The notes under the pieces: generated by a model
Told to the model about the DNA's origin: nothing
The model's input: only the letters and a program-made list of their open reading frames with translations
Database searches by the model: none
Origin: a virus
DNA: 64,000 bases
Reading direction: 5' to 3' (one strand)
IMG/VR virus record: IMGVR_UViG_3300026512_000010
Span: 1-64,000 of that record
Position numbers and translations under genes: made by a program
In this document: positions 1,922 through 58,435 of the stretch, piece by piece
How the letters are laid out: the number at the start of each line of letters is the position of its first letter
How positions within the stretch are numbered: the stretch's first letter is position 1

Positions 1922-2128
1922 TTATTTTGAATTTATCGTTTTTTCTTTTATATTTTCATCGTTTTTAATCTTTATAGATGGATGAGGTATAATTAAAGCA
2001 AATACAATCAATAAAACAACCATTTCTGTAAAAGAAATTTTATCTTTTGAAAATAAATACATAACCCCACATAATATAATTGTTATCATTATATAGAACG
2101 CTACATTTATAATTGTTGCTTCTTGCAT
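1922..2128 (-). CDS. Small hydrophobic membrane protein
   Basis: Two hydrophobic segments; ATGA-type junction with the ligase gene. Confidence 0.35.
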   Translation of the reverse strand: MQEATIINVAFYIMITIILCGVMYLFSKDKISFTEMVVLLIVFALIIPHPSIKIKNDENIKEKTINSK

Positions 2129-10656: not shown

Positions 10657-10658
10657 AT

Positions 10659-11756: not shown

Positions 11757-11795
11757 CTGAACTCCTATTTTTATTATAATTATAACTTATTTTTA

Positions 11796-13879: not shown

Positions 13880-13892
13880 ATAATTCCTTTAA

Positions 13893-13923
13893 TAATTATA
13901 ATATGTTTTACAACAAAAGTAAA
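13893..13923 (-). promoter_or_regulatory. Conserved phage promoter cassette (variant)
   Basis: taattataatatgttttacaacaaaagtaaa. Confidence 0.4.
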
Positions 13924-17195: not shown

Positions 17196-18221
17196 TTATA
17201 TAATTTTAGTATATTCATAATTAATTTTCATAAATCCTTCAGTATATAAAGGAAGCTCAAATCTTTTGGCAAAATCAATTAAAACATTTTCTGGAATAAA
17301 TTTTCCATCAATTTTAGCTCTTTCTTTGTTTCTTTTTAAAATTTCATCTAAAGAAGTCATCATAACAATGGCTATTGCATTATGATTTTTAAGTTGAGAT
17401 AGCCATTTCTTTCTTGATTTCCAGCTAACATTTGTCATATCAATTACAAAATCTTTGTCTGAATTTTTAAGTCTATTAAATTTTTGTTGAAGAATTTTAT
17501 CAACTTCTTTTTGATCTTCAAAGGTTAAATTTTTCCAAATTTCAGAATATGTTTCACCATATCCTTTTTCTTTTCCGTATTCCAAAAGAATACCATCTCT
17601 ACTTAGAACTTCCAAATCTTTAAAATTTTCTTTTATATATGTTGATTTCCCAGAATTTGGAAGCCCTATCATAATATAACAATTATTATCTAATTCTGTG
17701 TTGCAAATTTTATTATGTCCATATTTTTCTTTTTCTTTATGAGTAAATCCTTTAAAAGAAATATTACCTTTAGCATCATATTCTGAGAATTCATAAAGCT
17801 TTTCATATAAATCATAATGTCCATTAATGAAATATTTTTTAATTTGTTTATCTGATTTTTGCCAGAATATCCCATGGTAGTTAATCACATAAAAAATTTC
17901 AAACGCATCAGACCAAGAAATAACATTTTCATATACTAAATTCATTAAAAAATCGATAGCCATTAAAGTAGAAATTCCTTCATGACCTCTAAATACAATT
18001 TTTCCATTTTCAAGCTCTTGTCTTGCGAGAGGTTTTCCAATATCATGAAGAAGTGCAGCAATTTGAATATTTTTTGAAGCATTGTTTAATCTTGCTTGAT
18101 TAAACACAAGCATAGTATGAGTCCAAACATCCCCTTCAAGATGATACGTTCCGTTTGGATGAGTAGCAAATTTTAATCCTTTTTCATAATTTTCTTTAAA
18201 AAGTTTAAATATTTTTTCCAT
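17196..18221 (-). CDS. Bifunctional HD-domain phosphohydrolase / polynucleotide 5'-kinase (RNA end-healing enzyme)
   Basis: N-terminal HD motifs (HLEGDVWTHTM, AALLHDIGKP, RGHEGIS); C-terminal P-loop MIGLPNSGKSTYIKE resembles the T4 Pnk kinase GCPGSGKST; sits next to Rnl1. Confidence 0.7.
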   Translation of the reverse strand: MEKIFKLFKENYEKGLKFATHPNGTYHLEGDVWTHTMLVFNQARLNNASKNIQIAALLHDIGKPLARQELENGKIVFRGHEGISTLMAIDFLMNLVYENVISWSDAFEIFYVINYHGIFWQKSDKQIKKYFINGHYDLYEKLYEFSEYDAKGNISFKGFTHKEKEKYGHNKICNTELDNNCYIMIGLPNSGKSTYIKENFKDLEVLSRDGILLEYGKEKGYGETYSEIWKNLTFEDQKEVDKILQQKFNRLKNSDKDFVIDMTNVSWKSRKKWLSQLKNHNAIAIVMMTSLDEILKRNKERAKIDGKFIPENVLIDFAKRFELPLYTEGFMKINYEYTKII

Positions 18222-19283: not shown

Positions 19284-20405
19284 TTATAGATTTTTTAAAA
19301 ATTCTCTTGCTTTTGACAATTTAAAAGTATCTTTTATAATTTTTTCTTTTAATAGTTTCTCTAAATCCTCTTTTTTATTTGCTTTCATTAAAACACTAAA
19401 ATAAGGATGCTCTTTATGTTTTAAAGCAAACTCTTTTCTTTCTGTTTGAAATTTTACTTTTAATAATTCATTCAATTCATTATACATTTTATCAAAATAG
19501 TGAGAAACTTTATTCCTTATTTCCTCAATTTTATTTCTTTTTTCTCCCTGCGGTAATTGTGATATTACATCATCTATTGTTTCATTTATAATATGTTCTA
19601 TTAATTTATTTTCAACCAAATTATCAGGACTAATTAAATGATGAAGTGTAAAATACCATTTAGTTTTCACCTTTCTAAATTGTCTTTCAAAATTTTCGAA
19701 TGGATTCATTACCACCCACCCTTCAATATCTGTAAATGTTTCTTGTCTTTCTCTTAATTCAGTTAAAGTTAAATATTCAACCTGTGTAATTGGTAGATCA
19801 TACACAAATGCTATATTTTTCACTTTATCATATTCTAAATATTCACCTGTAATAATTCTTCTTGCTTGAATTAATTTTAATTCTGTTTTTTCATATGGAA
19901 CAACAATTTGATTAAATGGGGATATTAATTCAAAAAATAAAAGTATTCCTTCTTTATAACAATTTCTAATTGCGTTTTGGTATTTTTCATTTTTATTAAT
20001 TATTTCTTGTGCCAATTTTGCTTGCTCAGAAAAAAATGTTCCTTTTGTTTTAGCAAGGAAGATTTCATTACCTTTTAGGTTTTCAATATAAATGGTTTGA
20101 ATTAAACTCCCATCTAATTTTTCTCTTGCTTCAAGTCTAGCATTTTCCCATTTTTCATCATTCATTGTAAATGGATTTTCATTATCATTAAAGAATTTGT
20201 GTAATCCTAAATAATAATCTTTTGTTTCTAAATTAATTGTTAAACCTCTTAATTCTAATGCAAAAGAATCTTTAGCAAAATCAGAATAAGAAGCCAACCT
20301 ATAATTAAAAATTCTAAATGGTGTTCCATCTACTACTTCATCTTTATAATAGAAAGCATCATTTTCTTTAACTATGTTCATTGCTCTTTCAAATAAATGA
20401 TTCAT
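19284..20405 (-). CDS. rnlA: RNA ligase 1 (T4 Rnl1/RnlA-like)
   Basis: [26 protein letters not shown] and NENPFTMN match T4 Rnl1 ([35 protein letters not shown] identical); KxDG motif [10 protein letters not shown]. Confidence 0.85.
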   Translation of the reverse strand: [373 protein letters not shown]

Positions 20406-22518: not shown

Positions 22519-23274
22519 TCATGTTTTTCTTTTTGTTATTTTATTCCATCTACAATTACTGCCTATTTCACCATTACTAAAAAGATATATAACATTCAGA
22601 TTTGGATTTGTTTTATTATAATCCCAAAACCAAATATAAGGAAATTTTTTAAGTGCCAAAGCATTATTTTTTAATGTTTCAACATACATAGGATATTTAT
22701 TTTCTACTTCATAAAATTCTATGCTTTCATCTATTAGAATAAAATATTGCAAAAATTTATAAAACCATTTTTTATTTTGTGTTTCATAAACTTCTGGGCG
22801 TATAGTTACTTCAAAATCAAACAATTCTGGTAATTCGTTTTTCCATTTATCAATAACCCAAAAATTATTTGACGTCATCACAAATGACAACCTTACTTTG
22901 TTTTTATAATTATATAATTTATCAATAGTTTCTTTATCTATATTTTCATCAATACTAAAAACAAATTTATCATATCCACTTTTAAAAGCTTTTTCTAATA
23001 CTTTTATATTTCTTGTATGCAATGTGATTTTAATATTTGGATTAAATTGTTTTGCGAGTTTTGATATTTCCCAAGTTTCTTTTATAAATGAAGGATCTGA
23101 AGTATCACCACTTATTGAAAGTAAATTTGTCATATCTGCAAAACATTCAATAAAAGCTTTCCATTTTGTTGAAAAATGTGGGTTTTTATTTTCTCTAATT
23201 TTATTCCCAACACAAAAATCACATTTAAAAGGACAATCCCCACCCGCAAGTATTGAAATATAATCAAATTTCAT
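22519..23274 (-). CDS. Radical SAM protein (Cx3Cx2C)
   Basis: GGDCPFKCDFCVGN cluster 12 residues from the N-terminus; NrdG is encoded separately at 30529..31020. Confidence 0.65.
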   Translation of the reverse strand: MKFDYISILAGGDCPFKCDFCVGNKIRENKNPHFSTKWKAFIECFADMTNLLSISGDTSDPSFIKETWEISKLAKQFNPNIKITLHTRNIKVLEKAFKSGYDKFVFSIDENIDKETIDKLYNYKNKVRLSFVMTSNNFWVIDKWKNELPELFDFEVTIRPEVYETQNKKWFYKFLQYFILIDESIEFYEVENKYPMYVETLKNNALALKKFPYIWFWDYNKTNPNLNVIYLFSNGEIGSNCRWNKITKRKT

Positions 23275-24101: not shown

Positions 24102-24863
24102 TTAACTCCTATATTTAGATACAATTAAATCATATGTTACATAATCTTTTAGTGGCATAATAATATTTCTACTCCTAATGACTTCTCTCATATCCTCACC
24201 AACATAAATAGGAACTTGTTCTTTTTTAATATAAACACCAAATTTAAAAAAGTCTGAAATATCATTCCAATCTTTATTATATTTTTCTTTCACGTATTCG
24301 ATTTGCTCATTTGCTGTTTTAAACATAAGTTCTTTATGAGAAGCATATGCTCTTGCAAACATACTTTTACTATTTCTAATAGCATCTCTTTTTCTTTCTG
24401 CAATTACATCCACTAATTTTTCATCAGGAACAGAAAAAACTCGTGCATCAAACCAAGCACCATCAATTGGCTTCATAAAACTTTGACCAAATTGTAATGT
24501 AGCTAAACTTGCACTCAAAGAAGCAAGTTTCTGAACCCTTCCATTATAAGGGTGAGTATATCCTTTTTTATCTGGCTGAGCTGGAATTATAATTGTGATT
24601 TCATCACTTTGTGTATAACCAAACGTTGCTTGAAATTCATCGAAAATTTTTTCCATCGCTTTTACCATAGCAAATGAAAAATCATGATCGAAAGGTTTTT
24701 TGCAATATTTTTTCGACAATTTACTAAATTTGTGGCCATCAACTCTGATTACAATATGTTGATCTTTTGGAATATTGATTTCATATTGCTTTTCATATTG
24801 TTTAATTTTGTAAAGATGTTCTTTGTTCATGATTTGACCTTTTTCTATTTTGCATAAACACAA
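24102..24863 (-). CDS. Thg1-like protein (tRNA-His guanylyltransferase family, 3'-5' nucleotide polymerase)
   Basis: IVIRVDGHKFSKL, KKPFDHDF and FGYTQSDEITIIIP match the Thg1 signatures VVVRLDGRNFHRF, KPND and YGQSDEYSFVF. Confidence 0.75.
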   Translation of the reverse strand: MCLCKIEKGQIMNKEHLYKIKQYEKQYEINIPKDQHIVIRVDGHKFSKLSKKYCKKPFDHDFSFAMVKAMEKIFDEFQATFGYTQSDEITIIIPAQPDKKGYTHPYNGRVQKLASLSASLATLQFGQSFMKPIDGAWFDARVFSVPDEKLVDVIAERKRDAIRNSKSMFARAYASHKELMFKTANEQIEYVKEKYNKDWNDISDFFKFGVYIKKEQVPIYVGEDMREVIRSRNIIMPLKDYVTYDLIVSKYRS

Positions 24864-27748: not shown

Positions 27749-27833
27749 TGGCGGAGGGTGCAGGACTCGAACCTGCAAGTCTTTTCAGACCACGGATTAG
27801 CAATCCGCTCCCTTACCATTCGGACAACCCTCC
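27749..27833 (-). tRNA. tRNA-Ser (GCT), CCA encoded, long variable arm
   Basis: Reverse complement GGAGGGTTGTCCGAATGGTAAGGGAGCGGATTGCTAATCCGTGG...GGTTCGAGTCCTGCACCCTCCGCCA; anticodon loop TTGCTAA. Confidence 0.8.
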
Positions 27834-28006
27834 AAATTTAGAACACTATCCCGGGATAGTGTTCTGGGATATTTCACTTAAAATAATGAAGTGGCCAATT
27901 TCATTTATTTTTTAGTTACTATACCTCAGTGTCTATTTTGCTTCGCCAAACGACACCACCAAAAGCTCTTTAAATTTTTCTTAAAAAACTTAGAGAGTTT
28001 TTGTTT

Positions 28007-28093
28007 TGGTGCACAAGGTGGGACTCGAACCCACACGTCCTTGCAGACACTGAATTTTAAGTCCAGAGCGTCTACCAGTTCCGCCACTCGTGC
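28007..28093 (-). tRNA. tRNA-Leu (TAA)
   Basis: GCACGAGTGGCGGAACTGGTAGACGCTCTGGACTTAAAATTCAG...GGTTCGAGTCCCACCTTGTGCACCA; long variable arm. Confidence 0.8.
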
Positions 28094-28155
28094 AATGATC
28101 TACAGATAATCCTATAGAAGATACCTCTTTCTACACAATGGTAGATGAGCAATTT

Positions 28156-28230
28156 TGGCAAGGGATGATGGGATCGAACCACCAACATCGGTTTTGGAGA
28201 CCGACATTTTACCAATTAAACTAATCCCCT
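28156..28230 (-). tRNA. tRNA-Trp (CCA)
   Basis: anticodon loop CTCCAAA; T-arm GGTTCGATCC; 3' CCA. Confidence 0.75.
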
Positions 28231-28232
28231 AT

Positions 28233-28308
28233 GGTGATCAGGGTGGGGATCGAACCCACGACCACATGATTAAAAGTCATGTGCTCTACCGACTGAGCTA
28301 CCTGATCA
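28233..28308 (-). tRNA. tRNA-Lys (TTT)
   Basis: TGATCAGGTAGCTCAGTCGGTAGAGCACATGACTTTTAATCATG...GGGTTCGATCCCCACCCTGATCACCA. Confidence 0.8.
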
Positions 28309-28310
28309 TT

Positions 28311-28384
28311 TGGTTGCGGGGGCAGGACTCGAACCTGCGACCTTCGGGGTATGAGCCCGACAAACTACCACTGTTCCACCCCGC
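28311..28384 (-). tRNA. tRNA-Met (CAT)
   Basis: GCGGGGTGGAACAGTGGTAGTTTGTCGGGCTCATACCCCGAAG...GGTTCGAGTCCTGCCCCCGCAACCA. Confidence 0.75.
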
Positions 28385-28388
28385 ATTT

Positions 28389-28462
28389 TGGTATCCCCAA
28401 CGGGATTCGAACCCGTGTCAACTGATCGAAAATCAGTTATCCTAACCTCTAGACGATGGGGA
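28389..28462 (-). tRNA. tRNA-Glu (TTC)
   Basis: GTCCCCATCGTCTAGAGGTTAGGATAACTGATTTTCGATCAGT...GGGTTCGAATCCCGTTGGGGATACCA. Confidence 0.8.
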
Positions 28463-28463
28463 C

Positions 28464-28541
28464 ATGGTCTGGGTGGCAGGGCTCGAACCTGCGACCTCCT
28501 GGTCCCAAACCAGGCACTCTACCAAACTGAGCTACACCCAG
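28464..28541 (-). tRNA. tRNA-Pro (TGG)
   Basis: CTGGGTGTAGCTCAGTTTGGTAGAGTGCCTGGTTTGGGACCAGG...GGTTCGAGCCCTGCCACCCAGACCA. Confidence 0.8.
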
Positions 28542-28545
28542 ATGA

Positions 28546-28616
28546 TGCCGAGGGTAGGAATCGAACTACGACCATTAGATTTTCAATCTAACACTCTACC
28601 TCTGAGTTACCTCGGC
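28546..28616 (-). tRNA. tRNA-Phe (GAA), 3' CCA not encoded
   Basis: GCCGAGGTAACTCAGAGGTAGAGTGTTAGATTGAAAATCTAAT...AGTTCGATTCCTACCCTCGGCA followed by TCA rather than CCA. Confidence 0.7.
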
Positions 28617-28754
28617 AAGATCCAATTTTAAGGGAAATTGAAGCCCCTAACAAAATTCTTAAAAAGAACTTTATTAGAAGTTTTTATTAAAGGTGAAAAG
28701 TAAATAATATTAGATTAAAAGTCTAGTCATTTAGGAACTTTATTTACCTTTAAT

Positions 28755-28791
28755 ATTTATAATTATATTATAATTTCAATAAAAAGTAAAG
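28755..28791 (-). promoter_or_regulatory. Conserved phage promoter cassette driving tRNA sub-cluster 1 (Phe to Ser)
   Basis: atttataattatattataatttcaataaaaagtaaag. Confidence 0.5.
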
Positions 28792-28813
28792 TTTTTATTT
28801 AAAAATTTATTTT

Positions 28814-28888
28814 TGGCTCCCCCACCTGGATTCGAACCAGGGACATTCGGATTAACAGTCCGACGTTCTGCCACTGAACTATGAGGGA
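28814..28888 (-). tRNA. tRNA-Asn (GTT)
   Basis: TCCCTCATAGTTCAGTGGCAGAACGTCGGACTGTTAATCCGAA...CTGGTTCGAATCCAGGTGGGGGAGCCA. Confidence 0.8.
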
Positions 28889-28889
28889 T

Positions 28890-28964
28890 TGGTAGTCCCG
28901 AGAGGATTTGAACCTCTATTACCCGATTATCAGTCGAGCGTTCTAACCTATTGAACTACGGGAC
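28890..28964 (-). tRNA. tRNA-Ile (GAT)
   Basis: AGTCCCGTAGTTCAATAGGTTAGAACGCTCGACTGATAATCGGG...GGTTCAAATCCTCTCGGGACTACCA. Confidence 0.75.
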
Positions 28965-28965
28965 T

Positions 28966-29043
28966 ATGGAGCCAGGAGAGGGACTCGAACCCTCAACGAC
29001 CTGATTACAAGTCAGACATTCTAGCCAATTGAATTATCCTGGC
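28966..29043 (-). tRNA. tRNA-Thr (TGT)
   Basis: GCCAGGATAATTCAATTGGCTAGAATGTCTGACTTGTAATCAGG...GGGTTCGAGTCCCTCTCCTGGCTCCA. Confidence 0.8.
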
Positions 29044-29044
29044 A

Positions 29045-29121
29045 TGGCGGTGCGAACGGGACTCGAACCCGCAGCCTCTGGTGTGACAAACCAGCGTTCT
29101 AACCATTAGAACTACCGCACC
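29045..29121 (-). tRNA. tRNA-Asp (GTC)
   Basis: GGTGCGGTAGTTCTAATGGTTAGAACGCTGGTTTGTCACACCAG...GGGTTCGAGTCCCGTTCGCACCGCCA. Confidence 0.8.
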
Positions 29122-29143
29122 TTTATAAAATTATAATTATTAA

Positions 29144-29219
29144 TGGCTAGGGAGGTAGGACTCGAACCTACGGCCACCTGAGTCAAAGTCAGGTGTTCTA
29201 CCAACTGAACTACTCCCTA
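29144..29219 (-). tRNA. tRNA-Gln (TTG)
   Basis: TAGGGAGTAGTTCAGTTGGTAGAACACCTGACTTTGACTCAGG...AGGTTCGAGTCCTACCTCCCTAGCCA. Confidence 0.75.
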
Positions 29220-29220
29220 A

Positions 29221-29308
29221 TGGCAGAGGAGGTGGGATTCGAACCCACGGAAGTTTTACCTCCACTGGTTTTCAAGACCAGCACCTTAAACCACTCGGAC
29301 ACTCCTCT
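29221..29308 (-). tRNA. tRNA-Ser (TGA), long variable arm
   Basis: AGAGGAGTGTCCGAGTGGTTTAAGGTGCTGGTCTTGAAAACCAG...GGGTTCGAATCCCACCTCCTCTGCCA. Confidence 0.75.
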
Positions 29309-29316
29309 AAATTAAT

Positions 29317-29401
29317 GGTGGAGGCGGGTGGACTTGAACCACCAGTCCCAACGGGAACGGATTTACAGTCCGCACGGCTACCAATTACCGGTTACACCTC
29401 C
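29317..29401 (-). tRNA. tRNA-Tyr (GTA), long variable arm
   Basis: GGAGGTGTAACCGGTAATTGGTAGCCGTGCGGACTGTAAATCCGT...GGTTCAAGTCCACCCGCCTCCACCA. Confidence 0.8.
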
Positions 29402-29465
29402 ATAAAGGTGAGAGCTAATTTTTAAAAATCCAAACAATTTTTAACTTTAAGGAAGCTCTTTAACC

Positions 29466-29500
29466 TTATAATTATATTATAATTTTTAACAAAAGTAAAG
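29466..29500 (-). promoter_or_regulatory. Conserved phage promoter cassette driving tRNA sub-cluster 2 (Tyr to Asn)
   Basis: ttataattatattataatttttaacaaaagtaaag. Confidence 0.5.
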
Positions 29501-29526
29501 CATTTTATCTAAAATACTTAATAAAA

Positions 29527-29637
29527 TGGGAATGGAGATTTGAACTCCGGTCTCGCCCTCCATATTTTTATTGAGGTTTGGCTTCCTCTGGACTAACCAC
29601 CAATTTTTAAATTCTCCATTTTATTCAGGGTAATAAC
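29527..29637 (-). ncRNA. Aberrant tRNA-like / structured RNA element with its own promoter (T-arm-like GGAGTTCAAATCTCC, ends complementary, ends ...CCCA; no canonical cloverleaf found)
   Basis: Minus strand GGGTTATTACCCTGAATAAAATGGAGAATTTAAAAATTGGTGGTTAGTCCAGAGGAAGCCAAACCTCAATAAAAATATGGAGGGCGAGACCGGAGTTCAAATCTCCATTCCCA. 5' AATGGAGA(A)TTT pairs with 3' AAATCTCCATT. Confidence 0.25.
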
Positions 29638-29684
29638 CCTTATAAAAAATCTCATATTAAAATCTTTTATAAGTTTTATTATCT

Positions 29685-29719
29685 TTATAATTATATTATA
29701 ATTTTTAACAAAAGTAAAG
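29685..29719 (-). promoter_or_regulatory. Conserved phage promoter cassette upstream of the tRNA-like element
   Basis: tttataattatattataatttttaacaaaagtaaag. Confidence 0.5.
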
Positions 29720-29746
29720 TAATTTTTTTAAAAAAATTATAAATAG

Positions 29747-29823
29747 TGGAGCAGGAGACGAGACTCGAACTCGCGACCCTCAGCTTGGAAGGCTGACGCT
29801 CTAGCCAACTGAGCTACTCCTGC
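29747..29823 (-). tRNA. tRNA-Gly (TCC)
   Basis: GCAGGAGTAGCTCAGTTGGCTAGAGCGTCAGCCTTCCAAGCTGA...GAGTTCGAGTCTCGTCTCCTGCTCCA. Confidence 0.8.
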
Positions 29824-29825
29824 AA

Positions 29826-29901
29826 TGGTGGAGGCGACGGGAATCAAACCCGTGACCTTCTGCGTGCAAAACAGATGCTCTATCTACTGAGCTACGCCCC
29901 C
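29826..29901 (-). tRNA. tRNA-Ala (TGC), G3:U70
   Basis: GGGGGCGTAGCTCAGTAGATAGAGCATCTGTTTTGCACGCAGA...GGGTTTGATTCCCGTCGCCTCCACCA. Confidence 0.8.
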
Positions 29902-29978
29902 TGGTATGCCGTCCAGGATTTGAACCTGGAACTACAGGATTAGAAATCCTGTTCTCTATCCAGTTGAGCTAACGGCAT
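29902..29978 (-). tRNA. tRNA-Arg (TCT)
   Basis: ATGCCGTTAGCTCAACTGGATAGAGAACAGGATTTCTAATCCTG...AGGTTCAAATCCTGGACGGCATACCA. Confidence 0.75.
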
Positions 29979-29979
29979 G

Positions 29980-30065
29980 TGGTGCAGGAAGAGAGACTCG
30001 AACTCTCACGTCTTGCGACACCAGATCCTAAGTCTGGCGTGTCTACCAATTCCACCATTCCTGCA
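29980..30065 (-). tRNA. tRNA-Leu (TAG), long variable arm
   Basis: TGCAGGAATGGTGGAATTGGTAGACACGCCAGACTTAGGATCTGG...GAGTTCGAGTCTCTCTTCCTGCACCA. Confidence 0.75.
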
Positions 30066-30143
30066 AATTTATATTTATTATTTAATAAACAAATTTTCAA
30101 AAATCACCAAATTTAAGCTAAATTTAAGAAAAATTTTAAAAAT

Positions 30144-30193
30144 TGGGAAGACCAGAGGGAATCGAACCCTCGCCCACAGGGTCACGACCTGTG
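30144..30193 (-). pseudogene. tRNA-His (GTG) 3' fragment: anticodon arm, short variable loop, T-arm, acceptor 3' strand, C73 and CCA present; 5' acceptor strand and D-arm absent
   Basis: Minus strand ACAGGTCGTGACCCTGT GGGC GAGGGTTCGATTCCCTC TGGTCTT C CCA. Upstream sequence has no complementary acceptor strand; the stop of ORF 30227..30457 lies 34 nt upstream. Confidence 0.45.
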
Positions 30194-30226
30194 TTTCTAA
30201 CATTTAAATTATGGACTCCATAAATA

Positions 30227-54185: not shown

Positions 54186-55724
54186 TTATTTATTAAAAAT
54201 TTTTAAATATTCGTCATAAAATTTCCAAACACATTTAGGTGTATTTTTTTCAAAAAAATCTTCATCAAAAATATTTTCTATAACTTTTGTTGCAGAAATA
54301 GAATTTTCATCTCTTTGAATTTCTATTACGTGTATGTCATGTCCAATCTTAACAATTTGCTCTTTATAAACATCTACTCTATCTGAACCAGCTACAACTC
54401 CGCCTATAACTGTTGGAAGAGCTTTATTTAAAATCGTTGCAATATTACCGCTTCTGGTTTCAACTATTTTTATAATACCATTTTTAATTTCTTTTTTATA
54501 ACATTCTTCTAAAACCTTTCTTCTAAGTTCATTTGAAGAAAAAGTATCCTTGCTTGAAACAAGTGCTATAACAACACCTTTATATTTTTGAAGAGCTTTA
54601 TCAATAATTTTTTTATGTCCATTTGTAAATACTCTAAATTTACCTATAGCTAATGCATATTTATCAGCGAACATTCTTATCAATTTAAGTTTAAGTGTTA
54701 AAAAAATATCATCTTTAATCATTTCCCAAGATTTTTTTGGATGAGTTATAGAATCTTCTGGTAATTTTTTAATTAAATTTGAAGCTTTTAAAATAATACT
54801 CCTAAAATCCACACCATCTTTACTTGTTATTCCTAATTGCTCAATTAATTCATTTGCTTTTTGTCCAACTTCTGCCCAATATATAGACTCTTGAAACGGA
54901 TCTGCTTTAAATTTCTGTTTAACTTTTGCTCTATCTTCTTTCGATAACTGATATTCCTGCTGAATTTTTAAAGGCGGAAATTGACTATTCCAAAATATAA
55001 ACCCCTCAGGCTTTCCTCCAAAAACAGATTTTACAGAAAGAAAAACATTATTTAAAATTTTCCAATATAACTCTATATCATTTTCAGAATTTTGTAAATC
55101 TTCTAATTTCTTTTGAACTGCTTTATCAAGCTCTTTATATTTTATTCCTTTTAATAATTCTTTAGTTGGATATAAAACTCCCTCAAAAACAATAGGAGGA
55201 ACATGAATATGCATCTTTTTAGCTAAATCTGCTCTCTCATCAAAATCAAAGTCAAAATTTGTATTTGATGTTATTAACATACCATTTTTTATTTCATAAG
55301 AACTTTTACCATATGAAAGTAAAATTAGATTATAAAGATTGTTATATTGGCTCATTAATGTTGGCTTTTTTACAAGATATTCGCAAAAAAACTGATATCC
55401 TTTTGGAAGATTATTCACATTTACCTGTTTTAAAGTATCAAATATAAATTTAAACTGAGAGCTACCTATAGATTTTTTGGCCTCTTCATCAGTATTATAT
55501 TCAAATTCTTCTGGATATAATACATTACCTTTATATGCAACAATCCAGTTTTCAGTATATGGTTTTTTAGAACTTGCATCTTTTTTTAGTATTAAATTGA
55601 CTTTCAACCCATCTAATTTCTCTTCAACTATCTGCTGAGTTTCTAAAAAAGAAAGAAGCTTTCTTTTATCTTTTAAGACATTTTTAGCAGATTTAACAGA
55701 TATGTCCATATAATTTTTCATCAT
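54186..55724 (-). CDS. Fusion protein: N-terminal KxDG ligase-type nucleotidyltransferase domain plus C-terminal (H/T)xGH cytidylyltransferase-like (PPAT/NMNAT-type) domain
   Basis: Ligase motif I IVEEKLDGLKV and motif IV-like GGKPEGFIFW; C-terminal GKFRVFTNGHKKII...ISATKV resembles PPAT GsFDPiTnGH...ISST. Confidence 0.5.
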   Translation of the reverse strand: MMKNYMDISVKSAKNVLKDKRKLLSFLETQQIVEEKLDGLKVNLILKKDASSKKPYTENWIVAYKGNVLYPEEFEYNTDEEAKKSIGSSQFKFIFDTLKQVNVNNLPKGYQFFCEYLVKKPTLMSQYNNLYNLILLSYGKSSYEIKNGMLITSNTNFDFDFDERADLAKKMHIHVPPIVFEGVLYPTKELLKGIKYKELDKAVQKKLEDLQNSENDIELYWKILNNVFLSVKSVFGGKPEGFIFWNSQFPPLKIQQEYQLSKEDRAKVKQKFKADPFQESIYWAEVGQKANELIEQLGITSKDGVDFRSIILKASNLIKKLPEDSITHPKKSWEMIKDDIFLTLKLKLIRMFADKYALAIGKFRVFTNGHKKIIDKALQKYKGVVIALVSSKDTFSSNELRRKVLEECYKKEIKNGIIKIVETRSGNIATILNKALPTVIGGVVAGSDRVDVYKEQIVKIGHDIHVIEIQRDENSISATKVIENIFDEDFFEKNTPKCVWKFYDEYLKIFNK

Positions 55725-55729
55725 TTTCC

Positions 55730-56680
55730 TTATTTTATTTTGTCAATAGGTTTATAAATTTTTATTTTTCCCTGAGTTACAGCTTCCACTTCTACAGGAG
55801 CTAAGTTTTCTAAATAATATATTTTTCCAATTTCACTTTTAGTTGATTTTTGACCTACTATCATTATATAAGGCATTTTATCCTTTTTAATTACATCATT
55901 TACTTTTTTTATTATTTTAGAATATGTGATTGTGTCTGTATTTTCAAAATGTTGTTTCAATCTATTAATTGTATCAATGCGTTGTATATTACCTAAAATT
56001 TCTCCATCAATATAAACATTTAAAAGATTATCTATTTCTACATCTAAAAACTTTTTATCTGTTAAAATATTTTTTTCATTATTTTTTGCTAAAGTGAGCC
56101 ATTTTGTTAATTCACCTTTATTTATGGATTTTTTTATTTGATCTGGTGGAAACATTTTAGGATTTAAGGAACTCATCGTTTTTATGTATCTTACAATATC
56201 TTCATAAACGTGATTAAGTGCCTCTTTCATTAAAGTTCCGAATCTAAAATTTTTAAGTTTGTCACCACTTTTAATTACTTCTTTGAGTTCAGCATAATCA
56301 TTACCAAAAGTAATATCATAAGGACTATTTCCACCACCAATAGTGATGTTTTGATGAAGAATAGATAATAAAATTTCGCCTCTTCCTATTCCTTTCCCTA
56401 TTATCCCCATTAAATCGATGATAACACCTTTATATTTGGGATAAATGTTTTTATTATAATAATTAACAAATTGTTTTAAACTTTGTTTTCCTTCTGTAAT
56501 TAAAGGTGGTAAATCATCAACAGAAATTTTTAACTTATTTGCTATAATTTCTCTTAATTTTTGTTTATCTTCTAATAAATCTGACTCTGCAAGCTTTACT
56601 TGTGCAGACGTGAGAGAAATATCTGTTATTACAGAATTTGATTCCTCTATTTTATGCAATGCTTCTCTTATATAACTCAT
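55730..56680 (-). CDS. Hypothetical protein
   Basis: ORF between the ligase fusion and the NTase. Confidence 0.4.
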   Translation of the reverse strand: MSYIREALHKIEESNSVITDISLTSAQVKLAESDLLEDKQKLREIIANKLKISVDDLPPLITEGKQSLKQFVNYYNKNIYPKYKGVIIDLMGIIGKGIGRGEILLSILHQNITIGGGNSPYDITFGNDYAELKEVIKSGDKLKNFRFGTLMKEALNHVYEDIVRYIKTMSSLNPKMFPPDQIKKSINKGELTKWLTLAKNNEKNILTDKKFLDVEIDNLLNVYIDGEILGNIQRIDTINRLKQHFENTDTITYSKIIKKVNDVIKKDKMPYIMIVGQKSTKSEIGKIYYLENLAPVEVEAVTQGKIKIYKPIDKIK

Positions 56681-57906
56681 TTAAAATCCTCCAGTGATTT
56701 TTCTCTAAATTTTATATTATTTAAGATATATTCTAAAAGGGATTCTCTTAAACCATAATTTTTATAATACGCATCTATTTTAGACAACCATTTTTCATAG
56801 TCTGATTTTAAAAATGAAATTTGTTTCAATAAATAATTAACTGCTCCAATTTTTATTTTATAATCAAGTTCAGGATTATCTCTTTCTAATTCCTGAGCAA
56901 TATTTTTTCCATTTTTATTATCCCACAGTAAATCCAAAAATCTTCCAAAAGCCATTTTAATCTGTTTCTTATCTAAATACTTATTTATTAATTCCACAAG
57001 CCCTACAAAAGACCAAAATTTATTTTTTTCATCATTTGTAGGTTTAATACCAAATATCATTTCAAATATTTCATCTATATTTGTATGATAAATGCTTTCA
57101 TCTGTTTTTAATTTTCTAAAAACAAATTTTCCATCTTGTTGAACCTGTTCATCATCACAAATTAATGGTTCATACGCAACCCTTATTCCTCTTGAAACAC
57201 TAAACTTTAATAAATGATTATCAGGATTTTTAGTTTTAGAAATTTTCTTTTCCCAATTTTCACAATTTGCTGAAGATGTGACAAAAATTGCATTATTAAT
57301 ATATGAAGTTGCGTATGCTATGCTTCTTAATAAGTATTTGTGAAAAACTGCTTTGACCCCTGCCTGTAAATCTGTAAATGTTGAACTATGACTGAATTTG
57401 CTCCACTCTGAAGGAATAAATTCATTTTCTTTCTCTTCAAATGGAACAAACTCAAAATCCACTTGAGAGTATACACATTTATCTTTTTCATAACAATATT
57501 TAAACAAAGCATTAATCTGTTCACCTATGCTTGATTCAGTTGGTTTATTATTTCCTATATATGCAAAATTACCTATTTGTTTTCCTTCAATACTTTTAAG
57601 GAAATTCCATAATTTTCCTTTTAATTCTTCAGGAACCATTATATCAATATCTCCAGCAGAAGGCTTTAAATCTAAAACACTTGGAGAAATATCATTTTGC
57701 ATCAAAAAACTTGTTGAACCATTGAAAACATAACTATTATCTATTATCTTTTTAGTTTTCCAAATATGCTCTTTATTTTGCTTAAAAAATGAATTATCTA
57801 ATTCATAAAACAATTTTTTAAAATCGTTTTGAAATTTTTTTATACCTATTTCTTTTACAGGTATCTTTTGTGCTTTGAATCCCTTTACTTGGACATTACC
57901 ACCCAT
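56677..57906 (-). CDS. Pol-beta-superfamily nucleotidyltransferase of unknown specificity
   Basis: FNGSTSFLMQNDISPSVLDLKPSAGDIDIMV matches the hG[GS]-x(9-13)-Dh[DE]h minimal NTase signature. Confidence 0.45.
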   Translation of the reverse strand: MGGNVQVKGFKAQKIPVKEIGIKKFQNDFKKLFYELDNSFFKQNKEHIWKTKKIIDNSYVFNGSTSFLMQNDISPSVLDLKPSAGDIDIMVPEELKGKLWNFLKSIEGKQIGNFAYIGNNKPTESSIGEQINALFKYCYEKDKCVYSQVDFEFVPFEEKENEFIPSEWSKFSHSSTFTDLQAGVKAVFHKYLLRSIAYATSYINNAIFVTSSANCENWEKKISKTKNPDNHLLKFSVSRGIRVAYEPLICDDEQVQQDGKFVFRKLKTDESIYHTNIDEIFEMIFGIKPTNDEKNKFWSFVGLVELINKYLDKKQIKMAFGRFLDLLWDNKNGKNIAQELERDNPELDYKIKIGAVNYLLKQISFLKSDYEKWLSKIDAYYKNYGLRESLLEYILNNIKFREKSLEDFK

Positions 57907-58435
57907 ATTTTTCCTTATATTTCTTTAGTAAAAATTTTATTCTTTGTTTGTTTGGTTGAAATTTAATACTTCTAAATGTTTTCCAATAATCGTCTGACTC
58001 ATATAATTCCAGTAATATTTTTTCATCTTTTCTCAAATCAGTATAATAAATAGGTTTTGAGTGCATCTGAATTGTTGAGATTTCTACAACCTTAGTAACT
58101 GAATTATAAACATTATAATTGTTAGATATTAAAGGATATAATTCTTTCTGATATTTTTCTACGAATCCCAAAACAGCTTTGAAATATTCTTCAGCAATTT
58201 CCAATGGAACTTCTTTAGTATCATGTGTTTTCAAATGCAGTAACACAGCAGGTTTCCAAAAGCCATTAAATTCATCATAATCTTTTTCGTTACTCTTCAC
58301 TCCAATATCAATCATAATATTTTTATACTCTGGTAATCCATATCTTGACGCCTTTATAATAAATGGATTTTCTTTAGGAAAATCCAACTCAATAAACCCT
58401 TTATTATTTAAGACCTCATTTAAAACAATTTCCAC
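57896..58435 (-). CDS. Hypothetical protein
   Basis: ORF. Confidence 0.4.
   Translation of the reverse strand: MEIVLNEVLNNKGFIELDFPKENPFIIKASRYGLPEYKNIMIDIGVKSNEKDYDEFNGFWKPAVLLHLKTHDTKEVPLEIAEEYFKAVLGFVEKYQKELYPLISNNYNVYNSVTKVVEISTIQMHSKPIYYTDLRKDEKILLELYESDDYWKTFRSIKFQPNKQRIKFLLKKYKEKYGW

What the first reader, a model, noticed from the sequence alone, without database searches (positions are those of the whole stretch)
54186..57906. Unusual nucleotidyltransferase trio: KxDG-ligase/PPAT-like fusion protein, unknown protein, Pol-beta-type NTase
The 512-aa protein joins a ligase-type adenylyltransferase domain (motif I EEKLDGLKV, motif IV EGFIFW) to a C-terminal (T)NGH cytidylyltransferase-fold domain resembling PPAT/NMNAT. 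I do not recognise this domain pairing. Two genes downstream is a minimal Pol-beta-superfamily NTase (GS-x11-DIDIM). The genome already has a DNA ligase and Rnl1, so this is a third ligase-like enzyme. It could be an RNA-repair or NAD/ADP-ribose-linked system or an anti-defence module, for example one that modifies or ligates nucleic-acid ends with a non-canonical nucleotide.
Basis: partly seen in the sequence, partly recalled or inferred. Interest (0 to 1): 0.6.

Follow-up and report, generated by a model that had tools for sequence, protein, structure and literature searches.

The report
Phage ligase–adenylyltransferase fusion repair module
A T4-like phage carries a conserved, so far unannotated gene set (a polymerase-beta-type nucleotide adder, a probable nuclease, and an RNA-ligase-like enzyme fused to an NAD-synthase-like adenylyltransferase) that most likely repairs broken RNA, and the ligase part appears to have handed its own activation step to the fused enzyme.

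Summary
Three tightly packed minus-strand genes encode a 409-aa Pol-beta-superfamily nucleotidyltransferase, a 316-aa protein, and a 512-aa fusion. The fusion joins a T4-Rnl2-like ligase module (fold match plus motifs I, III, IV, V) to a PPAT/NMNAT-like HIGH nucleotidyltransferase.

Neither the fusion nor the NTase is a one-off. Each belongs to a family of about 300 protein clusters, nearly all from T4-like phages and annotated "hypothetical". The NTase gene lies 0-3.3 kb upstream of the fusion gene in 27 of the 38 fetched loci that have enough flank. In Xanthomonas and Stenotrophomonas phages an unfused operon (NTase-X-Y-stand-alone NMNAT-like enzyme) preserves the linkage.

The middle protein's only invariant residues (GxGE...D...ExK) suggest a PD-(D/E)xK nuclease. 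It recurs in four or five clades, in two gene orders.

The best reading is an add-and-seal RNA-break repair module, analogous to RlaP plus RNA ligase, in a phage that also has Rnl1, a PNK-like enzyme, Thg1 and about 20 tRNAs.

The second motif-V lysine (T4 Rnl2 K227) is Gln in 38 of 40 members. The engineered K227Q mutant seals pre-adenylylated ends but self-adenylylates poorly, so the fused adenylyltransferase may supply that step. No biochemistry exists. I rate it a new variant of a known kind.

The parts
56677..57906 (-). 409-aa Pol-beta-superfamily nucleotidyltransferase from a new family (phrog_19290, function unknown). Predicted to add nucleotides to a 3'-OH end.
57715..57720 (-). G63-S64 of the NTase (the hG[GS] motif).
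   Evidence: Both residues are invariant in the 40-sequence alignment A2. Coordinates verified.
57643..57651 (-). D86-I-D88, the catalytic metal-binding carboxylate pair of the NTase.
   Evidence: Both aspartates are invariant in A2. Verified. They lie 21 residues after GS.
57451..57459 (-). D150-F-E152, the candidate third catalytic carboxylate of the NTase.
   Evidence: D150 is invariant and E152 is at least 90% conserved. Verified. Which of the two binds the metal is inferred, not shown.
55730..56680 (-). 316-aa fast-evolving protein, a putative PD-(D/E)xK-type nuclease. It is an accessory component of the module.
   Evidence: It has no Pfam, PHROG, NCBIfam or PADLOC hit. The word-indexed search found only one homologue. 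The exhaustive HMMER search found 27. The only invariant residues in the 23-sequence alignment are G99, E102, D122, E131 and K133. It is homologous to the gene that overlaps the end of the fusion gene in Vibrio phage phiKT1024 (hhalign prob 97.3%, E 2e-11) and to the equivalent gene in L009/L042.
56282..56386 (-). Putative nuclease core: G99-R-G-E102 (56375-56386), D122 (56315-56317) and E131-L-K133 (56282-56290).
54186..55724 (-). 512-aa fusion protein (phrog_27149, function unknown): an Rnl2-like ligase module plus a HIGH-type adenylyltransferase.
   Evidence: PHROG 27149 matches at E 4e-89. There are at least 319 full-length homologous clusters. The AF2 model has pLDDT 91.6 and pTM 0.84. 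Foldseek matches both halves.
54945..55724 (-). Residues 1-260: the covalent nucleotidyltransferase (ligase) domain.
   Evidence: Pfam RNA_ligase PF09414 covers residues 32-210 at E 1.2e-5, and 10 of 40 family members match it at E<0.01, best 2.5e-8. T4 Rnl2 structures 2hvr/2hvq/1s68 are the best fold matches. Conserved motifs: I (K36xDG), III (E115), IV (E240-G241) and V (K253).
55608..55619 (-). Ligase motif I, K36-L-D38-G39 (the presumed AMP-accepting lysine).
   Evidence: K36, D38 and G39 are each present in 39 of 40 members. Inteins in relatives P0014, P0025 and P0026 are inserted immediately after the G of this motif.
54960..54968 (-). Ligase motif V, K253-I-Q255. The second lysine of the classical K-x-K is replaced by Gln.
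   Evidence: K253 is present in 40 of 40 members. Position 255 is Q in 38, N in 1 and L in 1, and is never K. T4 Rnl2 has AIK225-C-K227. The equivalence rests on collinear motif order and the model's beta strands at 241-245 and 252-255, not on a superposition.
54669..54944 (-). Residues 261-352: a four-helix region that plausibly corresponds to the all-helical C-terminal domain of Rnl2.
   Evidence: DSSP places helices at 262-270, 276-296, 307-319 and 333-352. The Foldseek alignment to full-length T4 Rnl2 spans about 370 columns. H328, K330, K331 and D339 are conserved.
54189..54668 (-). Residues 353-512: the HIGH-superfamily (PPAT/NMNAT-like) nucleotidyltransferase domain.
   Evidence: Pfam CTP_transf_like scores 23.2 bits, above its cutoff, and 29 of 40 members match it. 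The family profile hits PPAT at E 8.6e-7 and an NMNAT at 1.2e-4 among PDB sequences. Foldseek gives PPAT TM 0.70-0.76 and NadM E 3e-6. Motifs: G361-K-F-R, T367-x-x-H370 (54615-54626), G446-S-D-R and I476-S-A-T-K480 (54285-54299).
57896..58435 (-). 179-aa ORF that overlaps the NTase start by 11 nt. It may be co-transcribed but is not a conserved part of the module.
   Evidence: It is absent from the closest relative L003, where the gp55-like gene directly precedes the NTase gene. BLAST finds no similarity to the 199-aa ORF in the same position in L005.

Best explanation
This is a conserved, phage-restricted 'add-and-seal' module for repairing broken nucleic-acid ends, most likely RNA such as tRNA or rRNA cut by host defence nucleases.

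Proposed steps:
1. The 409-aa Pol-beta-superfamily NTase extends or restores the 3'-OH end.
2. Where it is present, the PD-(D/E)xK-like protein trims or opens the lesion.
3. The Rnl2-like module of the 512-aa protein seals the 3'-OH to the 5'-phosphate.
4. The fused PPAT/NMNAT-like HIGH adenylyltransferase takes part in the adenylylation chemistry. My favoured detail is that it makes the A(5')pp(5')N end from ATP and the 5'-phosphate. This is the same reaction type as NMN + ATP -> NAD. The ligase domain naturally carries the equivalent of the T4 Rnl2 K227Q change, so it is predicted to be poor at self-adenylylation and good at sealing pre-adenylylated ends.

What is shown: the folds, the conserved catalytic motifs, and the gene linkage. 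What is inferred: every activity, the RNA substrate, and the division of labour.
For: Folds and motifs:
- The ligase module is closest to T4 Rnl2 and the C-terminal domain to PPAT/NMNAT, from a high-confidence model.
- Ligase motifs I, III, IV and V and the HIGH/ISxTK motifs are conserved in 40 diverse members.
- Inteins target motif I.
- The NTase has an invariant GS, DxD and third acidic residue and a Pol-beta-superfamily fold.

Linkage:
- Both families occur in the same phage groups.
- The NTase gene lies 0-3.3 kb upstream on the same strand, often overlapping the fusion gene, in 27 of the 38 loci with adequate flank.
- In Xanthomonas phage BUDD and Stenotrophomonas phage Mendera, an NTase homologue (E 1e-56 / 9e-15) heads an operon of overlapping genes. 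That operon ends in a stand-alone homologue of the fusion's C-terminal domain (E 2.5e-15 / 9e-13). The gene just upstream of that homologue carries KxDG, EGV(V/I)I and K-x-(Q/V) motifs.
- The nuclease-like gene recurs next to the pair in four or five clades, in two gene orders.

Analogy: RlaP Pol-beta NTases sit beside RNA ligases and add 1-2 NMPs to the 3'-OH of damaged RNA before ligation (PMC12776372; PMC7824862).

Context: the same window encodes Rnl1, an HD+kinase PNK-like protein, a Thg1-like enzyme and 19-20 tRNAs, plus a separate DNA ligase. No T4-type Rnl2 or NrdC.11 homologue is detectable in it.

Split-ligase detail: motif V is K253-x-Q255 in 38 of 40 members. T4 Rnl2 K227Q keeps step 3 but is deficient in enzyme adenylylation and in reverse step 2 (PMC3149579).
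Against: - No activity has been measured for any member.
- The N-terminal domain has no statistically significant sequence match to T4 Rnl2 or to any solved ligase, and the window protein is just under Pfam's RNA_ligase cutoff.
- PD-(D/E)xK enzymes mostly cut DNA, and the fold of the middle protein was not tested.
- In CP220-like Campylobacter phages the two core genes are about 66 kb apart.
- The motif I lysine is still nearly invariant, as expected for a self-adenylylating ligase.
- The K227-Q255 equivalence is by motif register only.
- The acceptor substrate of the HIGH domain cannot be read from sequence. PPAT and NMNAT score about equally.
Confidence: 0.45

Rival explanations
1. A DNA nick/gap repair ('ribo-patch') module. 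The PD-(D/E)xK nuclease incises, the Pol-X-like NTase fills in (possibly with ribonucleotides), and the Rnl2-like ligase seals a nick whose 3' side is ribo. This would protect the phage's hypermodified genome from host nicking or glycosylase attack.
For: The NTase's best structural matches by two methods are family-X DNA polymerases, including the minimal ASFV Pol X. The middle protein has a restriction-endonuclease-like signature. The module sits among replication and recombination genes, between the gp55-like and gp46/47-like genes. T4 has its alpha-glucosyltransferase in the same interval. The phage has a thymidine-hypermodification cassette. From established knowledge, T4 Rnl2 needs RNA only on the 3'-OH side of the nick.
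Against: The phage already has a canonical ATP-dependent DNA ligase. The ligase module lacks any sign of a DNA-ligase OB domain and resembles Rnl2. The Pol X resemblance is weak and barely separated from RNA-specific TUTases and cGAS/OAS. The module also occurs in phages with other DNA modifications or none known, so it does not track the thymidine cassette.
Confidence: 0.2
2. An NAD+/nucleotide-metabolism or anti-defence function. The C-terminal domain is a true NMN (or related) adenylyltransferase that rebuilds NAD+ or a related dinucleotide. The ligase-like and Pol-beta-like enzymes act on small molecules or on NAD-linked nucleic-acid ends, not in break repair.
For: The unfused homologues carry GRFQPxHxGH and SxS/TxVR motifs. 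These are typical of archaeal/NadM-type NMNATs (my own knowledge of the family). Some GenBank records annotate them as nicotinamide-nucleotide adenylyltransferase. NCBIfam's weak best hits include NMNAT families. Phage NAD+ reconstitution pathways are a known counter-defence theme.
Against: None of the described NARP1-3 pathways contains a ligase-like or Pol-beta-like enzyme. No Nampt-sized unexplained ORF is present in the window. In the fusion family the HIGH motif has drifted (first His to Thr, Pro to Val, final Arg lost), which argues against a housekeeping NMNAT. This reading does not explain conserved ligase motifs I-V or a Pol-beta NTase with polymerase-like folds.
Confidence: 0.12
3. 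The 409-aa NTase is a signalling or antagonist enzyme of the cGAS/OAS/CD-NTase type. It would make or mimic an oligonucleotide messenger, and the neighbouring genes would be functionally unrelated or would process that product.
Against: There is no PADLOC or Pfam match to CD-NTase or Mab-21 families in any of 40 members. Foldseek ranks only Pol lambda/beta at the top. Strong, repeated linkage to a ligase-like gene is what is expected for an end-processing enzyme.
Confidence: 0.05

Closest known systems
RlaP (PF10127; e.g. T4 NrdC.11, Pseudomonas RtcB-RlaP-RtcA) plus RNA ligase repair modules
   Same: A Pol-beta-superfamily NTase is genetically coupled to an RNA-ligase-type enzyme in phages. 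RlaP adds one or two NMPs to the 3'-OH of damaged RNA so that ligation restores function (PMC12776372; PMC7824862). The gene logic is the same: add, then seal.
   Different: The 409-aa family does not match PF10127 in any of 40 members, and hhalign against T4 NrdC.11 gives prob 0.14%. It is larger (about 400 aa) and structurally nearest to family-X polymerases. Its ligase partner is a novel fusion, not Rnl1, Rnl2 or RtcB.
T4 RNA ligase 2 (Rnl2, gene rnlB/24.1) and the Rnl2 family
   Same: It is the best structural match for residues 1 to about 350, including a helical domain after the NTase domain. The motifs are collinear: I (EK-x-[HD]G), III (E), IV (EG-x-x-x-K) and the first lysine of V. 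Pfam RNA_ligase matches 10 of 40 members.
   Different: There is no significant sequence similarity. The second motif-V lysine (K227) is Gln across the family. An extra HIGH nucleotidyltransferase domain is fused at the C terminus.
HIGH-superfamily adenylyltransferases: PPAT (CoaD) and NMNAT (archaeal/NadM/NadR type)
   Same: The Rossmann-like fold matches with TM 0.70-0.76 to PPAT and E 3e-6 to NadM. There is a profile match to PPAT at E 8.6e-7. (H/T)xxH and ISxT motifs are present. The unfused relatives have canonical GRFQPxHxGH.
   Different: In the fusion family the motif reads GKFRV(L/F)TxxH (first His replaced by Thr, Pro by Val), and the terminal Arg of ISxTxxR is replaced, with K480 conserved instead. 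All NCBIfam equivalog scores are far below cutoff. It is covalently joined to a ligase, so its acceptor may be a polynucleotide 5'-phosphate and not NMN or phosphopantetheine (inference).
Family-X polymerase plus ligase short-patch repair (e.g. ASFV Pol X with its ligase; Pol beta/lambda)
   Same: The NTase's top fold hits are Pol beta, Pol lambda, TdT, Pol mu and ASFV Pol X. The combination of nuclease, gap-filler and ligase mirrors excision-repair logic (established knowledge).
Trypanosome RNA-editing core (endonuclease + RET2 TUTase + REL1/REL2 Rnl2-type ligases). This comparison rests on my own knowledge and was not tested here.
   Different: It is a eukaryotic multiprotein complex guided by RNAs, with RNase-III-type and not PD-(D/E)xK nucleases. 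It has no HIGH adenylyltransferase.
Engineered step-3-only ligases (T4 Rnl2 K227Q, MthRnl mutants) and AppN formation by a non-ligase enzyme (RtcA)
   Same: K227Q seals pre-adenylylated 5' ends but is deficient in enzyme adenylylation (PMC3149579). The natural family has Gln at the corresponding motif position. RtcA shows that a separate enzyme can adenylylate 5'-phosphate ends (paper title in the reference list of PMC7824862).
   Different: Those are laboratory mutants or an unrelated fold. A natural ligase that outsources adenylylation to a fused HIGH-family enzyme has not, to my knowledge, been described, and it is not shown here.

Membership tests
Covalent nucleotidyltransferase superfamily (ATP-dependent ligases / capping enzymes) | Motif I KxDG with a conserved lysine nucleophile | tested here: met
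   K36, D38 and G39 are each present in 39 of 40 members. Inteins are inserted right after the G in three relatives.
Covalent nucleotidyltransferase superfamily (ATP-dependent ligases / capping enzymes) | Collinear motifs III, IV and V (E; EG; K-x-K) | tested here: inconclusive
   E115, E240-G241 and K253 are invariant. However, the second motif-V lysine is Gln in 38 of 40 members. The motif register is assigned by order, spacing and model strands, not by superposition.
Rnl2 family of RNA ligases (Pfam PF09414) | Profile match above the curated threshold | tested here: not met
   The window protein scores 25.9 bits against a 27-bit cutoff. Ten of 40 members match at E<0.01, best 2.5e-8. hhalign against T4 Rnl2 gives prob 0.08%. 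There is no PDB sequence hit at E<=10.
Rnl2 family of RNA ligases (Pfam PF09414) | NTase domain followed by an all-helical C-terminal domain, with the Rnl2 fold | tested here: met
   Foldseek top hits are 2hvr, 2hvq and 1s68 (E 1e-7 to 2e-5, prob 1.0) over about 370 columns. There are four helices at residues 262-352. The rmsd is high because the domain orientation differs.
Rnl2 family of RNA ligases (Pfam PF09414) | ATP-dependent sealing of 3'-OH/5'-PO4 nicks in duplex RNA | not testable with these tools
   This needs a biochemical assay.
HIGH / cytidylyltransferase-like nucleotidyltransferases (PF01467; PPAT, NMNAT) | Profile match above the curated threshold and a Rossmann-like fold | tested here: met
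   PF01467 scores 23.2 bits against a 21-bit cutoff, and 29 of 40 members match. The profile hits PPAT at E 8.6e-7. Foldseek TM to PPAT is 0.70-0.76.
HIGH / cytidylyltransferase-like nucleotidyltransferases (PF01467; PPAT, NMNAT) | (H/T)xGH and ISxTxxR signature motifs | tested here: met
   T367 is present in 37 of 40 members (S in 3) and H370 in 40 of 40. Position 369 is G in 14, A in 20 and K in 6. I476-S477-A478-T/S479-K480 is conserved, but the final Arg is absent. The unfused homologues have canonical HxGH and Arg.
NMNAT or PPAT proper (NCBIfam equivalogs) | Equivalog-level score | tested here: not met
   The best scores are 22 bits against a 198-bit cutoff (PRK13793) and 19 bits against 103 (CoaD). 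It should not be filed as either enzyme.
Pol-beta nucleotidyltransferase superfamily | hG[GS] ... [DE]h[DE]h ... third carboxylate on the palm-like sheet, with the Pol-beta fold | tested here: met
RlaP (PF10127) | Match to the PF10127 profile, or to T4 NrdC.11 | tested here: not met
   None of 40 members hit PF10127 at E<=1. hhalign of A2 against NrdC.11 gives prob 0.14%.
RlaP (PF10127) | Conserved gene neighbourhood with an RNA-ligase-type gene | tested here: met
   The NTase lies 0-3.3 kb upstream of the ligase-like fusion in 27 of 38 informative loci. An unfused operon exists in BUDD and Mendera.
RlaP (PF10127) | Addition of 1-2 NMP to RNA 3'-OH | not testable with these tools
   This needs a biochemical assay (reference behaviour in PMC12776372).
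Family X DNA polymerases | Palm plus thumb/fingers arrangement with HhH DNA-binding elements; templated gap filling | tested here: inconclusive
PD-(D/E)xK nuclease superfamily (middle protein) | Catalytic E ... D ... (D/E)xK signature | tested here: met
   The only invariant residues among 23 divergent homologues are G99, E102, D122, E131 and K133. The same pattern occurs in the Vibrio-phage homologue.
PD-(D/E)xK nuclease superfamily (middle protein) | Alpha-beta-beta-beta-alpha-beta restriction-endonuclease-like fold, or a profile match to a known member | tested here: inconclusive
   No Pfam hit in any of 23 members, and no PDB sequence hit.

The most novel reading that the evidence does not exclude
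A natural 'split-chemistry' polynucleotide ligase. The Rnl2-like domain carries the equivalent of K227Q and acts mainly as a sealing (step 3) enzyme. A fused NMNAT/PPAT-like HIGH-superfamily adenylyltransferase performs the 5'-end activation by making A(5')pp(5')N-RNA directly from ATP and a 5'-phosphate, in the way NMNAT makes NAD from NMN. It works together with a new Pol-X-like nucleotide-adding enzyme and an optional nuclease as a phage counter-defence repair machine.
Probability: 0.2. Interest if true: 0.85.

Novelty: new variant of a known kind. Interest (0 to 1): 0.62.

Why it matters
Phage RNA repair (T4 Pnkp/Rnl1 against PrrC) is the classic example of counter-defence. RlaP-type nucleotide adders were characterised biochemically only in 2025.

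This module would add three things:
- A second, sequence-unrelated family of ligase-associated Pol-beta enzymes.
- A previously undescribed ligase architecture that is widespread in T4-like phages of Campylobacterota, Vibrio, Xanthomonadaceae and many uncultured hosts, yet annotated everywhere as hypothetical.
- If the fused HIGH-type enzyme really adenylylates polynucleotide 5' ends, a new route to the AppN intermediate.

That last point would be of mechanistic interest for the ligase field. It would also be of practical interest, because pre-adenylylation and step-3-only ligases are workhorse reagents in RNA sequencing.

It also gives a concrete, testable candidate for how phages might defeat 'repair-defying' nucleases that excise nucleotides.

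Tried and rejected
Searches that found nothing:
- Megablast of the region against 50,697 phage genomes gave no match.
- PADLOC gave no defence-system match for any of the three proteins.
- Single-sequence and N-domain profile searches of PDB sequences found no ligase.
- hhalign and forced hmmalign against T4 Rnl2 failed, so no residue-level sequence alignment to Rnl2 could be obtained.
- No T4-type Rnl2 or NrdC.11 homologue was found in the window by tblastn or phmmer.

Tests that came back negative or uninformative:
- The idea that the 409-aa protein is a divergent RlaP was rejected at the sequence level.
- Sigma-70 promoter and terminator scans were uninformative in 25% GC DNA (48 sites against 41.5 expected). 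No T4-type late promoter TATAAATA lies directly upstream of the module.
- The NARP1-3 NAD+ reconstitution pathways do not include these proteins.
- The 520-aa ORF upstream of the stand-alone HIGH gene in L044 has no match to any of my profiles or to Pfam.

BUDD and Mendera X and Y proteins:
- Neither has a Pfam or PDB hit.
- hhalign aligns Y's KxDG to the family's motif I, but at only 1.3% probability. The 'unfused ligase' call therefore stays at motif level.
- Only close relatives exist in the phage collection, so the profile could not be improved.

- The search for related loci could not use the nuclease alignment because it is too divergent.
- The Burroughs and Aravind 2016 RNA-repair survey is not held in the library, so I cannot exclude that it mentions this architecture.
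- The GTDB scan found one hit, a 7.8-kb contig in a Sulfurovum MAG. It relied on a single peptide pattern, so 'phage-restricted' is provisional.

Full report
**1. What is there.**
The window is about 25% GC, with essentially all genes on the minus strand. It is a T4-like phage: it encodes a gp55-like late sigma factor, endonuclease VII, gp43 polymerase, gp41-like helicase, UvsX, gp44 and gp46. The three ORFs of the finding are real. They are 57906..56677 (409 aa), 56680..55730 (316 aa) and 55724..54186 (512 aa). They form a tight block immediately downstream of the gp55-like gene. The NTase and middle genes overlap by 4 nt (ATGA). The middle and fusion genes are separated by a 5-nt spacer with an AAGGA ribosome-binding site. 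In T4 the corresponding gp47-gp55 interval holds alpha-glucosyltransferase and small ORFs, so this is a variable region.

**2. The 512-aa fusion protein.**
- Pfam gives RNA_ligase (PF09414) for residues 32-210 at E 1.2e-5, or 25.9 bits, just below the 27-bit cutoff. It gives CTP_transf_like (PF01467) for residues 358-483 at 23.2 bits, above the 21-bit cutoff.
- The whole protein matches PHROG 27149 (function unknown) end to end at E 4e-89.
- It has at least 319 homologous clusters in the large protein collection, nearly all 490-540 aa and covering the full length.
- tblastn finds full-length homologues at about 37% identity in CP220-like Campylobacter phages and in a group of 191-196-kb Vibrio phages. 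All are annotated hypothetical.
- In a 40-sequence alignment the following are invariant or nearly so: K36-x-D38-G39-x-K41, Y64-K65, E115, K120-P-T, G236-G-x-x-E240-G241, K253-x-Q255-Q256, R265, then G361-K-F-R, T367, H370, G446-S-D448-R449, E468, R471 and I476-S-A-T-K480.
- An AlphaFold2 model built on this alignment is confident (pLDDT 91.6, pTM 0.84).
- Foldseek against the PDB returns T4 RNA ligase 2 (2hvr, 2hvq, 1s68; E 1e-7 to 2e-5) for the N-terminal ~350 residues. It returns PPAT (TM 0.70-0.76) and the NMNAT domain of NadM (E 3e-6) for the C-terminal domain.
- The region between the two catalytic domains is four helices, consistent with the all-helical C-terminal domain of Rnl2.
- The family profile finds PPAT (E 8.6e-7) and an NMNAT (1.2e-4) among PDB sequences. 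It finds no ligase, even when only the N-terminal part is used at E<=10.
- hhalign and forced alignment to T4 Rnl2 fail.
- So the ligase assignment rests on fold, conserved collinear motifs and sub-threshold or partial Pfam hits (10 of 40 members). It does not rest on significant pairwise sequence similarity.
- Three relatives carry an intein inserted exactly after the G of KxDG. This fits that motif being a strongly constrained active site.

**3. A peculiarity of the ligase module.**
T4 Rnl2 reads EK35IHG (motif I), E204-G-Y-V-L-K209 (motif IV) and A-I-K225-C-K227 (motif V). The family reads EK36xDG, E240-G-x-x-x-(K245 in 21 of 40) and h-L-K253-h-Q255. Position 255 is Gln in 38 of 40 members and is never Lys. 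According to PMC3149579, which summarises earlier mutagenesis and adds its own data, K227Q and K225R retain step 3, the joining of a 3'-OH to a pre-adenylylated 5' end. [quoted passage not shown] I infer the equivalence of Q255 and K227 from motif order, spacing and the model's strands at 241-245 and 252-255. I could not confirm it by superposition.

**4. The 409-aa protein.**
- It has no Pfam, NCBIfam or PADLOC hit, and no Pfam NTase family is hit by any of 40 members.
- It matches PHROG 19290 (function unknown) and has at least 279 homologous clusters.
- Invariant residues include an N-terminal GGN, F61-N-G63-S64-T-S, K81, G85-D86-x-D88, Q130, Q148-x-D150 (with E152 at least 90% conserved), H173, K185, K190 and K234. 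This is the Pol-beta-superfamily signature, with 21 residues and not 11 between GS and DxD.
- The model is confident (pLDDT 92.3).
- Foldseek's top 30 hits are all Pol lambda or Pol beta, but weak (E about 2e-3, TM 0.29-0.44, about 285 columns).
- It is therefore a new family of the superfamily, nearest to family X but not demonstrably a member.
- It is not RlaP by sequence (hhalign against T4 NrdC.11 gives prob 0.14%).

**5. The 316-aa middle protein.**
- It evolves fast. The word-indexed search found one homologue, and the exhaustive HMMER search found 27.
- In a 23-sequence alignment with 20-30% identity to the window protein, the only invariant positions are G99, E102, D122, E131 and K133. 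This is the E...D...ExK pattern of PD-(D/E)xK nucleases.
The nuclease call is therefore motif-based.
- The family includes the gene that overlaps the stop codon of the fusion gene in Vibrio phage phiKT1024 (hhalign prob 97.3%, E 2e-11) and in L009/L042.
- L049 has the NTase followed by two tandem paralogues.
- The 369-aa middle gene of L005 carries the motif but is only weakly detected.
- Elsewhere other small genes fill these slots. Two members on short contigs show no NTase or fusion gene in their roughly 1-kb flanks. It is a recurrent accessory, not part of the core.

**6. Linkage.**
- Both core families occur in the same phage groups.
- Across the first 44 loci fetched (L001-L044), 38 have enough upstream flank to judge. 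The NTase gene lies upstream on the same strand in 27 of them, from overlapping up to about 2.9 kb between the genes (the earlier, looser figure of 0-3.3 kb is an upper bound). It lies downstream on the opposite strand in one. It is absent within about 10 kb in 10, which form a Campylobacter-phage-like clade. In CP220 itself the two genes are about 66 kb apart.
- The trio in the window's order is conserved in relatives at 78% identity (L003/L004) and, with a divergent middle gene, at 54% identity (L005/L006).
- A scan of 185,579 species genomes found only one hit, a 7.8-kb contig in a Sulfurovum MAG that also carries the NTase. The module therefore appears phage-restricted, with the caveat that the scan used a single peptide pattern.

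**7. The unfused form.**
Distant NTase homologues in Xanthomonas phage BUDD (E 1e-56) and Stenotrophomonas phage Mendera (E 9e-15) head an operon of overlapping genes with four members:
- The NTase homologue.
- X (333 or 314 aa), with an 'ADVVL...PISVKK'-like D...SxK pattern.
- Y (286 or 268 aa), with KLDG or KMDG, EGVVI or EGVII, and YKIV or AKVQ.
- A stand-alone HIGH NTase of 162 or 166 aa.

The last protein is a significant homologue of the fusion's C-terminal domain (E 2.5e-15 and 8.9e-13). It has canonical GRFQP(V/I)H(N/K)GH and SAS/TxVR motifs. Some GenBank records name it nicotinamide-nucleotide adenylyltransferase. Y has no Pfam or PDB hit, and hhalign aligns its KxDG to motif I at only 1.3% probability. 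'Y is an unfused ligase-like domain' is therefore suggestive, not shown. Even so, the association of NTase and HIGH NTase is independently conserved outside the fusion family. The candidate Y also lacks the second motif-V lysine. A further variant, L044, has the HIGH domain alone with an acidic tail.

**8. Context and mechanism.**
- The same window encodes Rnl1 (19284-20405), an HD-phosphatase/P-loop-kinase protein (17196-18221), a Thg1-like enzyme (24102-24863), 19-20 tRNAs (27749-30218) and a canonical DNA ligase (2128-3525).
- No T4-type Rnl2 or NrdC.11 homologue is detectable in it.
- The literature describes exactly this logic for RlaP. It is a Pol-beta NTase next to RNA ligases, predicted and now shown to add 1-2 NMPs to the 3'-OH of damaged RNA so that ligation restores function. 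One example is repair after nucleases such as RloC remove a nucleotide (PMC7824862; PMC12776372).
- I therefore favour an add-and-seal RNA repair module (confidence 0.45).
- Within that, the K-to-Q change in motif V and the obligatory association with a HIGH adenylyltransferase suggest that the HIGH domain forms the AppN intermediate and the ligase domain seals it. HIGH adenylyltransferases transfer AMP from ATP to a phosphate monoester, giving a 5'-5' pyrophosphate, which is the chemistry required. I give this detail a probability of about 0.2.
- The main rival is a DNA nick/gap repair role (0.2). It is suggested by the Pol-X-like fold, the nuclease signature and the genomic setting.
- An NAD-metabolic or anti-defence role (0.12) and a signalling-NTase role (0.05) are less consistent with the evidence.

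**9. Novelty.**
In every library I could search the families are 'hypothetical' or 'unknown function'. No paper in the searchable corpus describes the fusion. One key survey (Burroughs and Aravind 2016) was not available. The concept of a ligase plus a Pol-beta NTase for repair is known. The components are new: a new NTase family, a ligase fused or linked to an NMNAT-like enzyme, a natural K227Q-type motif V, and an optional nuclease. I rate it a new variant of a known kind, with a minority chance of a mechanistically new ligation strategy.

Noticed in passing
window 27749-30218 (-): A cluster of 19 tRNA genes by ARAGORN, plus a 20th weak Rfam tRNA hit at 30147-30218. This explains the 42.6% GC island in an otherwise ~25% GC window.
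   Followed up: partly
window 8955-14922 (-): A thymidine-hypermodification cassette: 5-hmdU DNA kinase (HMUDK_hel, E 8e-65), a thymidylate-synthase-like protein, HMUD2, and an amino acid:DNA transferase / aGPT-pyrophosphorylase-like protein. The phage DNA is probably hypermodified at T. The relative L005 also has an HMUDK gene.
   Followed up: no
window 24102-24863 (-): A Thg1-like 3'-5' nucleotidyltransferase (PF04446, E 9e-29). This is another tRNA-end repair enzyme in the same phage.
   Followed up: no
window 17196-18221 (-) and 19284-20405 (-): An HD-domain plus P-loop kinase (AAA_33) protein, likely a polynucleotide kinase/phosphatase analogue, lies about 1 kb from an Rnl1-type ligase that has a weak match to the T4_Rnl1_C domain.
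   Followed up: no
relatives P0014, P0025, P0026 (and the truncated call P0013): A mini-intein of about 100 aa (C...HN|T) is inserted exactly within ligase motif I, after the G of KxDG.
   Followed up: yes
L049 1138-2875: Two tandem paralogues of the nuclease-like gene follow the NTase gene on a short metagenomic contig.
   Followed up: partly
L044 9947-10864 and 8289-9911: A stand-alone homologue of the fusion's HIGH domain carries a long acidic C-terminal tail. It lies downstream of a 520-aa ORF with a 'PADIWL...LPVSLKK' pattern and no database match.
   Followed up: partly
L009 6164-6586: A second, canonical stand-alone cytidylyltransferase-like gene (140 aa, motif FDLLHAGH) lies two genes downstream of the NTase-fusion-nuclease trio. 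It does not match the fusion family profile.
   Followed up: partly
L001 (CP220) and L008/L015: In the Campylobacter-phage-like clade the fusion gene sits near radical-SAM, UDP-glucose-dehydrogenase and epimerase genes. It is followed by a conserved 387-395-aa protein annotated as virion structural, and not by the NTase.
   Followed up: no
window 57896-58435 (-): A 179-aa ORF overlaps the NTase start by 11 nt. It has no database match, and no BLAST match among the neighbouring ORFs compared in related loci (L003, L005, L002, L007, L008, CP220). A terminator-like hairpin lies inside it at 58386-58364.
   Followed up: no
window 4193-5086 (-) and 22519-23274 (-): An SPFH/Band-7 protein (E 1e-16) and a weak radical-SAM protein are encoded elsewhere in the window.
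   Followed up: no
L005 15016-15552: The 54%-identity relative carries an Acb1-family (anti-CBASS phosphodiesterase) gene and a dUTPase_2 gene a few kb downstream of the module.
   Followed up: no
L002 1-81 (Vibrio phage phiKT1024): A gene annotated as a multifunctional tRNA nucleotidyltransferase (CCA-adding enzyme) lies about 3.4 kb upstream of the NTase homologue in the Vibrio phage.
   Followed up: no
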